5,846 bases of DNA from the IMG/VR virus record IMGVR_UViG_2531839446_000024, positions 1-5,846 of that record. One strand, written 5' to 3'. Shown piece after piece: positions 4,301 through 5,846 of this stretch. Source of the stretch: a virus. Taxonomy: Duplodnaviria > Heunggongvirae > Uroviricota > Caudoviricetes. A program made the position numbers. How positions within the stretch are numbered: the stretch's first letter is position 1; the number at the start of each line of letters is the position of its first letter.

Positions 4301-5846
4301 CATTCTGGAGTCAGATGAGAATGGCATTATCCCGGAGCAGGACAGGATAATCACGCAGGTGGTGATACTGGATGCGGATAAAAAGCAGATACAGTGTGTG
4401 GTAAGACCGCTGCAAATCCTGCGTGCTGACGGGACGTGGGAAAATATTGGCGGGATGAAATAGCCGACGGATTCACAAAAACCGGAGTCCGGATCCGGTT
4501 TTTGTTGTCATGTCCGGTGGATGTTTGTAGGAAACCAAAGGTGGCAAAACTGCTGGAGGTTTTGTGGTTGAGTATGTCAATATAATTAATAGATTAAAGA
4601 GTTAGTTGTGAAGAAAATATGGATAAACAGGACGACGAATGCTTTCACCGATAAGGACAACTTTCCATAACTCAGCAAATATAGTGCAGAGTTCCCCCTG
4701 TCAAACGGTTTCTTTTGCAGGAAAGGAATATGAGTTAAAGGTCATTGATGAAAAAACGCCTATTCTTTTTCAGTGGTTTGAACCTAATCCTGAACAATAT
4801 AAGAAAGATGAGGTTCCAATAGTTAATACTAAGCAGCATCCCTATTTAGATAATGTCATAAATGCGGCAAGGATAGAGAGTGATCGTATGATAGGTGTTT
4901 TTGTTGATGGCGATTTTTCATTCAGCCAAAAGGTTGCTTTTTCAAAACTGGAACAAGATTTTGAAAATATAATGATAATCTATCGGGAAAATGTTGATTT
5001 CAGCATGTATGATAGAAAACTATCAGATATTTATCATGATATTATATGTGAGCAAAAGTTACGCTCTGAAGCCAAAAGAGATGAATACTTGTTGAATCTG
5101 TTGGAGAAAGAGTTGAGTAAAATTTCAAATGCGCAGGATTCTTTGATTTATATGTATGCAGAGAAGAGAGATCATACATGGTTTGACATCTTCAGAAATT
5201 TAGCCTTATTGAAGGCAGGAGAAATCTTTAGATGCACAGATAACACAAAGAATCATGGAGTTTTATCCGGTGAGGGGTGTATATATCTTGATATGGATAT
5301 GATGCTTACAGGTAAGCTTGGTGTAATGCGTGCTCCAGATGGAATTGCAGTACATGTTGATCGTCGTAATGACAGTGTAAATATTGAAAATGGTGCAATA
5401 ATTGTTAATCGTAGTAATCATCCGGCTCTACTTGAGGGGTTGTCTTTTATGCACAAAAAAGTAGATGCTCATCCATATTATGATGGATTAGGAAAAGGAA
5501 TTAAGAAATATTTTAATTTTACTACATTGCATGATTACAATCATTTTTGTGACTTTATTGAGTTTAAACACAAAAATATTATTATGAACACAAGTCAGTA
5601 CACAGGAAGTTCATGGTAAAACCACCTCCCGTGGAGGTGGTTGCTTGCAGTCAGGTGTTTCGGGCCTGCGGCTTTTTGTGTTCCTTGGTAAGTGGTTACG
5701 ATTCTTTTGTGTTATTCCTCTCTGCGTCTATTGTCTTGGATAGCCATAAGAGTTCAGATACTGAGAATTTTAATTGTGGTGTTCTGTCTCTCGCGCCGGG
5801 TGGGATCATGTCAAAAGCGCAGGATTTTCTGCTGAATACTGTGTAG

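What the first reader, a model, noticed from the sequence alone, without database searches (positions are those of the whole stretch)
5620..5642. Perfect 10-bp hairpin without a U-tract abutting the effector stop codon
AACCACCTCC-CGT-GGAGGTGGTT begins one base after the TAA and is followed by GCTTGCAGTC. It is too perfect to be chance but lacks the T-run of an intrinsic terminator. Options are a rho-dependent or weak terminator, a 3' mRNA-stabilising stem, or an end or recombination site of an inserted cassette. The stem contains CCTCC/GGAGG, so the transcript carries an SD-like GGAGG that could sequester or present a ribosome-binding site for a downstream reading frame.
Basis: seen in the sequence. 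Interest (0 to 1): 0.4.

Follow-up and report, generated by a model that had tools for sequence, protein, structure and literature searches.

The report
Orphan IS200-type transposon-end hairpin
The perfect hairpin right after the nleB-like effector gene is a leftover copy of the end-hairpin of an IS200-type insertion sequence with no transposase, most likely acting now as a two-way transcription stop between two convergent effector genes; it is a known kind of relic.

Summary
The hairpin AACCACCTCC-CGT-GGAGGTGGTT is real, at 5620-5642, and starts directly after the nleB-like TAA. It does not belong to nleB. Homology to nleB2-nleC loci stops at 5620. Prophages without nleB carry the same hairpin and the same downstream sequence from 5621 on.

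The 9-bp stem ACCACCTCC/GGAGGTGGT is the conserved left-end palindrome of an IS200-group insertion sequence of about 635 bp. Its TnpA scores as NCBIfam transpos_IS200 and is 38% identical to classical IS200 TnpA. The exact stem occurs in 58 viral contigs and at least 120 genome loci, often next to tnpA.

The window copy is an orphan. It has no tnpA, no leader beyond TAAA, no right end, and no partner hairpin within 12 kb in the one close relative scanned that far. It lies between convergent nleB-like (+) and espO-espK (-) genes.

Classical IS200 has a differently sequenced hairpin of the same layout at the same position. That hairpin is an experimentally shown bidirectional terminator without a U-tract, so I infer a terminator or insulator role here. 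This is by analogy and is not shown.

The same orphan hairpin recurs at other prophage cargo junctions. The loop is exactly inverted between the two junction types. The Shine-Dalgarno idea is not supported. Novelty is low.

The parts
5620..5642 (.). Orphan IS200-group end palindrome (AACCACCTCC-CGT-GGAGGTGGTT). The 9-bp core ACCACCTCC/GGAGGTGGT is identical to the left-end hairpin of tnpA-bearing elements.
   Evidence: Searches confirm the hairpin. Searches show the same stem next to IS200-family tnpA. The nhmmer left-end profile scores 21.5 bits (E 7e-7) on the + strand and 14.2 bits on the - strand.
5617..5620 (+). TAAA: the nleB-like stop codon plus one base. It coincides with the last four bases (TAA|A) of the IS left-end leader consensus. 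This is the only flank match to the IS and a possible microhomology at the junction.
   Evidence: The nhmmer alignment covers 5617-5641. nleB2 in L003 also ends TGGTAAA, so the stop codon is native to nleB.
4639..5619 (+). nleB-like type III effector gene (326 aa), intact in this window.
   Evidence: ORF list. NCBIfam NF011909, NleB family arginine glycosyltransferase, 666.9 bits against a cut-off of 595.
5643..5695 (.). 53-nt spacer between the hairpin and the stop codon of the convergent espO-like gene. It holds a weak stem plus a T-run on the + strand (5652-5677). It shows no detectable IS200 homology.
   Evidence: Terminator scan. The nhmmer envelope does not extend past 5642. 10 of 54 columns vary among 9 locus variants.
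5696..5846 (-). 3' part of the espO-like small gene, which runs off the window. espK follows on the same strand in related genomes.
   Evidence: ML35 CDS at L001 12297-12575 (-) maps to window 5696-5974. The gene is annotated 'secretion protein EspO' in L004 and L189.
4475..4505 (.). Context: a 12-bp perfect hairpin with flanking A and T runs, terminator-like in both directions, after the tail-fibre C-terminal gene. In nleB-less prophages a truncated version of it is joined to ATTTT plus the IS-type hairpin.
   Evidence: (I3), alignment A1.

Best explanation
The hairpin is an orphan copy of the subterminal end palindrome of an IS200-group (IS200/IS605 family) insertion sequence. By profile score and loop it is the left-end type, read on the + strand. 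In intact elements this palindrome lies 14 nt inside the left end and is expected to be the ssDNA binding site of the Y1/HUH transposase TnpA. That expectation comes from established IS608/IS200 biology and was not tested here.

In this window everything else of the element is gone: tnpA, the leader, the right end and the cleavage sites. The hairpin therefore cannot transpose.

It sits in the 76-nt gap between two convergent transcription units, nleB-like (+) and espK-espO (-). Its most likely present role is to act, as an RNA stem, as a bidirectional transcription terminator or insulator and as a 3'-end protecting stem for both mRNAs. It should work better on the - strand, where nleB's TAAAA supplies a UUUU tail.

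Shown: the identity of the stem, its orphan state, its position on a mosaic junction, and its conservation. Inferred: TnpA binding, termination, and the way the junctions arose.
For: **Identity of the stem**
These are mostly Gammaproteobacteria.
- In dozens of them the layout is T-run | (A/G)TTGTCANCCCTAA | hairpin | GAT(T/C)G... followed by an ORF with the motif CKYH[IL]VWTPKYR.
- That ORF matches NCBIfam NF033573 transpos_IS200 at 139-152 bits against a cut-off of 55.
- A complete element in L033 (8993-9626) also has a right end AAAAG-CCACCTCC-TCA-GGAGGTGG-TCTTTTAC. It is 100% identical to E. coli B7A, where the gene is annotated as an IS200/IS605 family transposase.
- A profile of 66 left ends hits the window only at 5617-5641 (21.5 bits, E 7e-7).

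**Orphan state**
- The window has no tnpA-like ORF.
- No second IS-type hairpin (4 or fewer substitutions) occurs in the window or the related loci scanned, 12 kb either side in ML35 and 1.5-5 kb in the others.
- The flanks give no profile alignment.

**Relics are common**
- Left-end-only (1-111, 1-37) and right-end-only (583-635) fragments are frequent in E. coli, Salmonella and Shigella.

**Position**
- The hairpin lies between a stop codon at 5619 (+) and a stop codon at 5696-5698 (-).

**Terminator analogy**
- Classical IS200 has a 10-3-10 perfect palindrome, AACCCCCAGC-TAG-GCTGGGGGTT, at nts 12-34, also without a U-tract.
- It is described as a strong bidirectional Rho-independent terminator that stops about 85% of impinging transcripts (PMC5435999; PMC4513863).

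**Conservation**
- 0 of 18 stem positions vary, against 10 of 54 positions in the adjacent flank, among 9 variants. All 7 loci found by BLAST, and so without selection for the stem, have a perfect stem.
Against: - The experimental terminator data are for classical IS200. Its stem sequence differs and its TnpA is only 38% identical, so termination here rests on architecture and position alone.
- The + strand tail (UUGCUUGC) is poor in U. The consensus scan calls the hairpin on neither strand.
- Both feet of the hairpin abut non-IS sequence. It is unclear how two independent deletions could strip the flanks so exactly. The flanks may instead be a diverged IS subfamily that I could not recognise.
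- Orientation is not settled. The - strand reads hairpin + TTTTAC, which resembles the right-end tail NTTTTTAC but is two bases short.
- The conservation statistic is weak (P about 0.03) and partly affected by ascertainment.
- No 3'-end mapping data could be consulted.
Confidence: 0.75

Rival explanations
1. Inert relic. The hairpin is IS200-group debris with no present function. Termination of nleB and espO transcripts happens elsewhere or by Rho.
For: - No canonical U-tract, and the terminator scan does not call it.
- IS end fragments are common debris.
- In nleB-less loci the - strand tail is AAAAUGG, and a second hairpin, the tail-fibre terminator, follows.
Against: - The stem is perfect in all 9 variants while 10 of 54 flank columns vary.
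- A stable stem of -16 to -18 kcal/mol lies within 1 nt and 53 nt of two convergent stop codons.
- The homologous-position hairpin of IS200 terminates without a U-tract.
Confidence: 0.3
2. Active recombination site. The palindrome is a preferred crossover or breakage point, through TnpA acting in trans, cruciform or hairpin processing, or template switching. It mediates gain, loss or exchange of effector cassettes in the region downstream of the tail-fibre genes.
For: - Homology with nleB2-nleC loci ends at 5620, and homology with nleB-less prophages starts at 5621, exactly at the stem foot.
- The loop in nleB-less loci (ACG) is the exact reverse complement of the window's CGT. All three loop bases differ while all 18 stem bases are identical, which indicates a flip or a crossover inside the palindrome.
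- The same orphan hairpin occurs at a P2-type cargo hotspot and in a Q-downstream moron region.
Against: - Only two junction classes were seen at this locus, so there is one event and not a pattern.
- Canonical TnpA cleavage takes place about 14 nt to the left and 8 nt to the right of the stems, not at the feet.
- Complete elements of this type are rare in E. coli: 28 of 5426 genomes.
- Recurrence at cargo junctions is explained more simply by insertion after terminator T-runs.
Confidence: 0.12
3. An ordinary locus-specific terminator or mRNA-stabilising stem that arose independently and only resembles the IS hairpin by convergence.
For: Its position directly after a stop codon is typical of terminators. 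GC-rich stems with 3-nt loops are common.
Against: - An 18-of-18 match to a stem that is invariant across hundreds of IS copies has a chance of about 4^-9 for a given 9-bp stem.
- TAAA and a T-first loop (TGT in the O157 variants) also match the left-end consensus.
Confidence: 0.03
4. A translational element. The GGAGG in the 3' arm is a ribosome-binding site that the stem sequesters or presents for a downstream reading frame.
For: GGAGGTG is a perfect Shine-Dalgarno match. A TTG lies 7 nt downstream, at 5645.
Against: - The frames downstream are short or antisense to espO.
- The SD is buried in a 10-bp stem.
- In intact elements with this same stem the hairpin is the end palindrome, and tnpA has its own Shine-Dalgarno further downstream. 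In classical IS200 the equivalent hairpin lies upstream of the reported ~nt 40 tnpA transcription start.
Confidence: 0.02

Closest known systems
Left-end palindrome of an IS200-group insertion sequence of about 635 bp (for example E. coli B7A NZ_CP035812 2984157-2984791; L033 8993-9626)
   Same: Identical 9-bp stem ACCACCTCC/GGAGGTGGT, a 3-nt loop, and the preceding TAAA.
   Different: The window copy lacks the 14-nt leader, the GATTG... interior, tnpA and the right end. It is an orphan hairpin, not an IS copy.
Classical Salmonella IS200 (IS200F) left-end inverted repeat, nts 12-34, a bidirectional Rho-independent terminator
   Same: The same architecture and position: a perfect 10-3-10 palindrome with AACC...GGTT feet, a T-first loop, no U-tract, and a place just inside the left end. 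It is shown experimentally to stop about 85% of impinging transcription.
   Different: The stem sequence differs (AACCCCCAGC versus AACCACCTCC). TnpA is only 38% identical. The function is therefore transferred by analogy only.
[quoted passage not shown]
   Same: IS200/IS605-family end hairpins that survive without a transposase, are conserved, and sit at gene 3' ends.
   Different: A different genus, a different IS (IS605 group) and a different stem sequence. Here the host genes are prophage-borne type III effector genes.
REP elements and their RAYT (TnpA-like) transposases; PATE/MITE derivatives of IS200/IS605
   Same: Short extragenic palindromes related to IS200/IS605 ends. They are often placed between convergent genes and are credited with terminator and mRNA-stabilising effects (own knowledge).
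   Different: The sequence does not match the E. coli REP consensus as I recall it (not tested here). There are only one or a few copies per genome, and no RAYT link. The window copy has neither leader nor right-end tail, unlike the 45-nt 'leader + hairpin + tail' forms seen in L012, L021, L030, L075 and L096.

Membership tests
IS200-group insertion sequence (IS200/IS605 family), as a complete or mobile copy | A Y1/HUH transposase gene tnpA next to the hairpin | tested here: not met
   No such ORF is in the window. The neighbours are nleB-like and espO/espK. tnpA-bearing copies elsewhere score NF033573 at 139-152 bits.
IS200-group insertion sequence (IS200/IS605 family), as a complete or mobile copy | A subterminal left-end palindrome with the family's conserved stem | tested here: met
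   18 of 18 stem bases are identical. The nhmmer left-end profile scores 21.5 bits, E 7e-7.
IS200-group insertion sequence (IS200/IS605 family), as a complete or mobile copy | A 14-nt left-end leader (A/G)TTGTCANCCCTAA after a T-run target, and the GAT(T/C)G interior | tested here: not met
   Only TAAA matches, and the alignment envelope is 5610-5642. A look-alike TTTTTGTTGTCAT at 4500 was not picked up by the profile and is not claimed.
IS200-group insertion sequence (IS200/IS605 family), as a complete or mobile copy | A right-end hairpin CCACCTNN-NNN-NNAGGTGG followed by NTTTTTAC | tested here: not met
   No second hairpin with 4 or fewer substitutions in the window or in the related loci scanned: 12 kb either side in ML35 (L001), 1.5-5 kb in the others. 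On the - strand the same hairpin is followed by TTTTAC, two bases short. The right-end profile scores only 10.7 bits.
Intrinsic (Rho-independent) terminator | A stable GC-rich stem-loop | tested here: met
   A 10-bp stem. The 44-nt stretch folds at -16.5 kcal/mol on the - strand (stem alone) and at -18.4 on the + strand, where four extra pairs form.
Intrinsic (Rho-independent) terminator | A U-tract immediately 3' of the stem | tested here: not met
   The + strand tail is UUGCUUGC. The - strand tail is UUUUACC only if two A-U pairs are melted. The scan calls it on neither strand. The proven IS200 terminator also lacks a U-tract.
Intrinsic (Rho-independent) terminator | RNA 3' ends mapping just downstream of the stem | not testable with these tools
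   Term-seq for O157 Sakai exists (GSE143631, PMC7547250), but no supplementary tables are held.
Integron attC site or cassette border | An imperfect 57-141 bp palindrome with R''/R' core sites RYYYAAC / GTTRRRY and extrahelical bases | tested here: not met
   By reading the sequence: a 23-nt perfect stem. The 3' junction GTTGCTT does not fit GTTRRRY. There is no integrase context.
Any curated RNA family (Rfam 15) | A covariance-model match | tested here: not met
   No match at E of 1 or below in the window. Nothing covers the hairpin in 12 related loci.

The most novel reading that the evidence does not exclude
Orphan IS200-group palindromes are not just debris. They act as recombination or flip points and as portable bidirectional insulators that delimit and help exchange cargo modules in prophages, including type III effector genes downstream of tail-fibre genes, P2 cargo hotspots and Q-downstream morons. 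The exact breakpoints at the stem feet and the inverted loop between the nleB-plus and nleB-less forms would be footprints of such an event.
Probability: 0.12. Interest if true: 0.55.

Novelty: new member of a known kind. Interest (0 to 1): 0.25.

Why it matters
The finding explains an odd-looking perfect hairpin at an effector gene's stop codon as transposon debris and not as a new regulatory or cassette-border motif.

It gives a concrete and cheap hypothesis for how convergent nleB-like and espO-espK transcripts are kept apart. It flags that IS200-group end hairpins persist as orphans at prophage cargo junctions in pathogenic E. coli.

It also warns annotators. These 23-mers can be mistaken for attachment or cassette sites, and they mark places where prophage mosaics break.

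Tried and rejected
1. **Rfam.** Rfam 15 found nothing in the window at E of 1 or below, and nothing over the hairpin in 12 related loci.
2. **Direct repeats flanking the nleB cassette.** I compared window 4496-4600 with 5633-5700 after a suggestive MAFFT alignment. Local alignment scores were no better than shuffles under three scoring schemes, so this is rejected.
3. **TTTTTGTTGTCAT at 4500 as a displaced left-end leader.** The left-end profile did not report it even at E of 100 or below, and a similar chance match occurs at 2092. It is not claimed.
4. **Reading the hairpin as a right end on the - strand** because of the TTTTAC tail. The right-end profile gives 10.7 bits against 21.5 for the left-end profile on the + strand. 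The question stays open, but this reading is less likely.
5. **espO-espK as cargo between two IS ends.** No partner hairpin was found in the related loci scanned, 12 kb either side in ML35 and less in the others.
6. **A third junction class** (tail-fibre terminator + hairpin + a different right flank). None appeared among the 45 records listed, taken at even steps through the ranking of 709 matching records.
7. **Term-seq evidence.** The PNAS 2020 supplement is not held, and the original Beuzon 1999 paper is not held.
8. **Equating the stem with classical IS200.** I checked the real IS200F sequence and found a different stem. The claim was narrowed to 'a sister IS200-group element, with functional analogy only'.

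Full report
**1. The observation**

The window is the tail end of a lambdoid prophage. It holds these features:

| Feature | Coordinates | Strand |
|---|---|---|
| J C-terminus | 28-1344 | + |
| lom | 2128-2727 | + |
| Tail fibre | 2879-4192 | + |
| Small tail-fibre C-terminal gene | ends at 4463 | + |
| nleB-like ORF | 4639-5619 | + |
| 3' part of a small gene | 5696 onward | - |

The nleB-like ORF matches NCBIfam NF011909 (NleB family) at 666.9 bits against a cut-off of 595.

The hairpin AACCACCTCC-CGT-GGAGGTGGTT is at 5620-5642. It has 10 perfect pairs and a 3-nt loop. It starts directly after the TAA at 5617-5619, not one base later.

It is the only perfect hairpin of 9 bp or more with a 3-5 nt loop in the window. 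No shuffle of the window reproduced the pattern, even with 3 mismatches allowed. As RNA, the 44-nt stretch around it folds at -18.4 kcal/mol on the + strand, with four extra pairs outside the stem, and at -16.5 on the - strand for the stem alone.

There is no canonical T-run, and the terminator scan does not call it. The scan calls only weak stems at 5652-5674 before CGGCTTTTTG.

**2. The hairpin does not belong to nleB**

A megablast of 5400-5846 against 5,426 complete E. coli genomes found 1,042 places. The matches fall into classes that break at query position 221/222, which is window 5620/5621.

- **nleB2-nleC loci** match only up to 5620 and then read TGAATTTG... with no hairpin.
- **O26-type prophages** have no nleB. 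They match from 5621 onward. Their order is tail-fibre gene, a truncated terminator, ATTTT, ACCACCTCC-ACG-GGAGGTGGT, then the same downstream sequence with espO and espK on the opposite strand.
- This nleB-less form covers at least 80% of the query in 167 genomes. Ordinary tail-fibre loci share homology with it only as far as GGCTCC, five bases before the hairpin.
- **O157:H7** has a 114-nt nleB remnant, then the hairpin, a small unnamed gene at espO's position, espK and potB.
- **E. albertii** also has nleB followed by the hairpin (L143).

The hairpin therefore travels with the espO/espK side and sits exactly on a mosaic junction.

The window is 100% identical to E. coli ML35 over 5400-5846. 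In ML35, however, the nleB-like gene is split by IS1.

**3. What the hairpin is**

The exact stem ACCACCTCC-NNN-GGAGGTGGT occurs in 58 IMG/VR viral contigs, in about a dozen unrelated flank contexts. Most are Gammaproteobacteria, and many lie at contig ends, as is usual for repeated mobile DNA.

The recurrent layout is: T-run of a terminator | (A/G)TTGTCANCCCTAA | hairpin | GAT(T/C)G... This is followed by an ORF with the motif CKYH[IL]VWTPKYR. That ORF matches NCBIfam NF033573 'IS200/IS605 family transposase' at 139-152 bits against a cut-off of 55.

The element in L033 spans 8993-9626 and also has a right end...AAAAG-CCACCTCC-TCA-GGAGGTGG-TCTTTTAC. It is 100% identical to a copy in E. coli B7A that RefSeq annotates as an IS200/IS605 family transposase.

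A profile HMM of 66 left ends hits the window only at 5617-5641. It scores 21.5 bits (E 7e-7) on the + strand and 14.2 bits on the - strand. A right-end profile gives 10.7 and 9.9 bits.

So the stem is the subterminal end palindrome of an IS200-group element. It is best read as a left-end type on the + strand. Only TAAA, the nleB stop codon plus one base, matches the leader consensus (..TAA|A). nleB2 also ends TGGTAAA, so the stop codon is native to nleB. TAAA may be a junction microhomology; that is an inference.

**4. It is an orphan**

- No tnpA is present.
- No flank homology is detected.
- No partner hairpin occurs in the window or the related loci scanned, 12 kb either side in ML35 and 1.5-5 kb in the others.

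Such relics are common. Left-end-only fragments (1-111, and one of 1-37) and right-end-only fragments (583-635) occur in many E. coli, Salmonella and Shigella replicons. Complete copies of this type are in only 28 of 5,426 E. coli genomes.

**5. Care with the name 'IS200'**

I retrieved classical Salmonella IS200 (IS200F). Its left end reads TGTCTATGGAA-AACCCCCAGC-TAG-GCTGGGGGTT-CCGG. This is a perfect 10-3-10 palindrome at nts 12-34, with the same AACC...GGTT feet, a T-first loop and no U-tract, but a different stem. The two TnpA proteins are 38% identical.

The window hairpin therefore matches a sister IS200-group element, not IS200 itself.

[quoted passage not shown] PMC4513863 places the terminator at nts 12-34. 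Both papers refer to the classical element. I transfer that function here only by analogy of position and architecture.

**6. How it most likely works here**

The hairpin lies in a 76-nt gap between two convergent stop codons: nleB-like at 5619 (+) and espO-like at 5696-5698 (-).

- On the - strand the transcript reads ...GCAAGCAACCACCUCCACGGGAGGUGGUUUUACC. That is an 8-bp GC-rich stem plus UUUU if the two terminal A-U pairs open. This is the only credible stop for espK-espO in nleB-bearing loci.
- On the + strand the stem is followed by UUGCUUGC. Ten bases later comes a weak stem plus CGGCUUUUUG.

I infer that the hairpin acts as a bidirectional terminator or insulator and as a 3'-protecting stem. 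This is not shown.

Weak support comes from conservation. Among 9 sequence variants of the locus, 10 of 54 flank columns vary but 0 of 18 stem positions do. All 7 loci reached by BLAST, and so without selection for the stem, have a perfect stem. The probability is about 0.03, and the sample is partly ascertainment-biased.

**7. The junction and the flipped loop**

nleB-bearing loci have loop TGT or CGT. nleB-less loci have ACG, the exact reverse complement of CGT. All three loop bases differ while all 18 stem bases are identical.

One inversion of the palindrome explains this far better than three substitutions. The inversion could come from template switching, from a cruciform, or from a crossover inside the stems. 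Together with the breakpoints at the stem foot, this keeps a recombination-site reading alive at about 0.12.

Against that reading, only two junction classes exist at this locus. Canonical TnpA cleavage sites also lie about 14 nt to the left and 8 nt to the right of the stems, not at the feet.

**8. Recurrence at other cargo junctions**

- In a Qin-like prophage the hairpin lies between the Q antiterminator (ydfT) and cspF/cspB. This form is in 40 genomes, including strain 2014C-3655, which also has the espO-linked copy.
- In a P2-like prophage it lies right after a DEAD/DEAH helicase cargo gene and before the replication endonuclease gene, in 70 genomes.
- It also lies after long ORFs that read like tail-fibre or tailspike genes in several viral contigs; I did not annotate those ORFs.

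Several of these copies are 45-nt 'leader + one hairpin + right-end tail' units, in L012, L021, L030, L075 and L096. That form is what recombination or slippage between the left-end and right-end hairpins would leave; this is an inference.

The simplest reason for the recurrence is the element's habit of inserting just after terminator T-runs, not a cassette-border function.

**9. Comparison with what is known, and verdict**

The closest precedent for orphan hairpins at gene 3' ends is Delihas 2009, on IS605 stem-loops in Borrelia (PMC2775950).

The hairpin fails the membership test for a mobile IS copy, because tnpA, the leader and the right end are absent. It passes only the stem criterion, so it is a relic of an IS and not an IS.

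It is not an attC site, and by recollection of the E. coli REP consensus (not tested) it is not a REP. No Rfam family matches it. The SD-related idea is not supported.

Overall this is a real, explained, fairly ordinary feature: a new example of a known kind. Interest is 0.25.

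Noticed in passing
window 5630-5632, compared with L002 5010-5012 and L189 1631-1633: The loop of the hairpin is CGT or TGT in nleB-bearing loci and ACG in nleB-less loci. ACG is the exact reverse complement of CGT, and the stems are identical. This looks like a flip of the palindrome and not like point mutations.
   Followed up: partly
L012 1466-1510; L021, L030, L075, L096 (hairpin positions as): Units of about 45 nt made of an IS left-end leader, a single hairpin and the right-end tail (N)TTTTTAC, placed after terminator T-runs and without tnpA. 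They look like 'solo' forms left by left-end/right-end hairpin recombination, or like minimal MITE-like elements.
   Followed up: partly
L186 4181-4205 (E. coli 2014C-3655) and L187 4185-4207 (E. coli WP2-W18-CRE-03): The same orphan hairpin sits at other prophage cargo junctions. One is between the Q antiterminator ydfT and cspF/cspB in a Qin-like prophage. The other is directly after a DEAD/DEAH helicase cargo gene in a P2-like prophage, where the helicase stop codon lies within GTAAAAG, the complement of the right-end tail.
   Followed up: partly
L001 10463-12220 (E. coli ML35), compared with window 4639-5619: In ML35, which is 100% identical to the window over 5400-5846, the nleB-like gene is split by an IS1B insertion. 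The window has the intact 326-aa ORF, so it comes from a related genome that is not IS1-disrupted.
   Followed up: no
window 4475-4505: A 12-bp perfect hairpin, ACAAAAACCGGA-GTCCGGA-TCCGGTTTTTGT, with A and T runs on both sides. It looks like a bidirectional terminator after the tail-fibre C-terminal gene. In nleB-less prophages it is truncated at GGCTCC and joined to ATTTT plus the IS-type hairpin.
   Followed up: partly
window 3590-3960 (within ORF 2879-4192): The tail-fibre protein carries a long collagen-like Gly-X-Y repeat region (GPPGPKGEQGPAGPQGPKGDKGERGD...), preceded by an Ala/Glu/Ser-rich low-complexity stretch.
   Followed up: no
L093 around 6621-6641 (Erwinia tracheiphila): Here the hairpin is flanked on both sides by inverted copies of a left-end leader (TTTTTATCCCTGCATGAAC-hairpin-GTTCATGCAGGGATAAAAAA). 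This looks like a head-to-head left-end/left-end palindrome of about 60 nt.
   Followed up: no
L037 411-490: A type II hammerhead ribozyme (Rfam RF02276, 62.4 bits against a gathering score of 37) lies in a viral contig that also carries an IS200-group element.
   Followed up: no
window 5600-5611 and 5670-5681: In the 131-nt RNA fold, ACACAGGAAGUU at the end of nleB pairs with GGCUUUUUGUGU downstream and encloses both hairpins. The z-score is only -1.65, so this is probably fortuitous.
   Followed up: no
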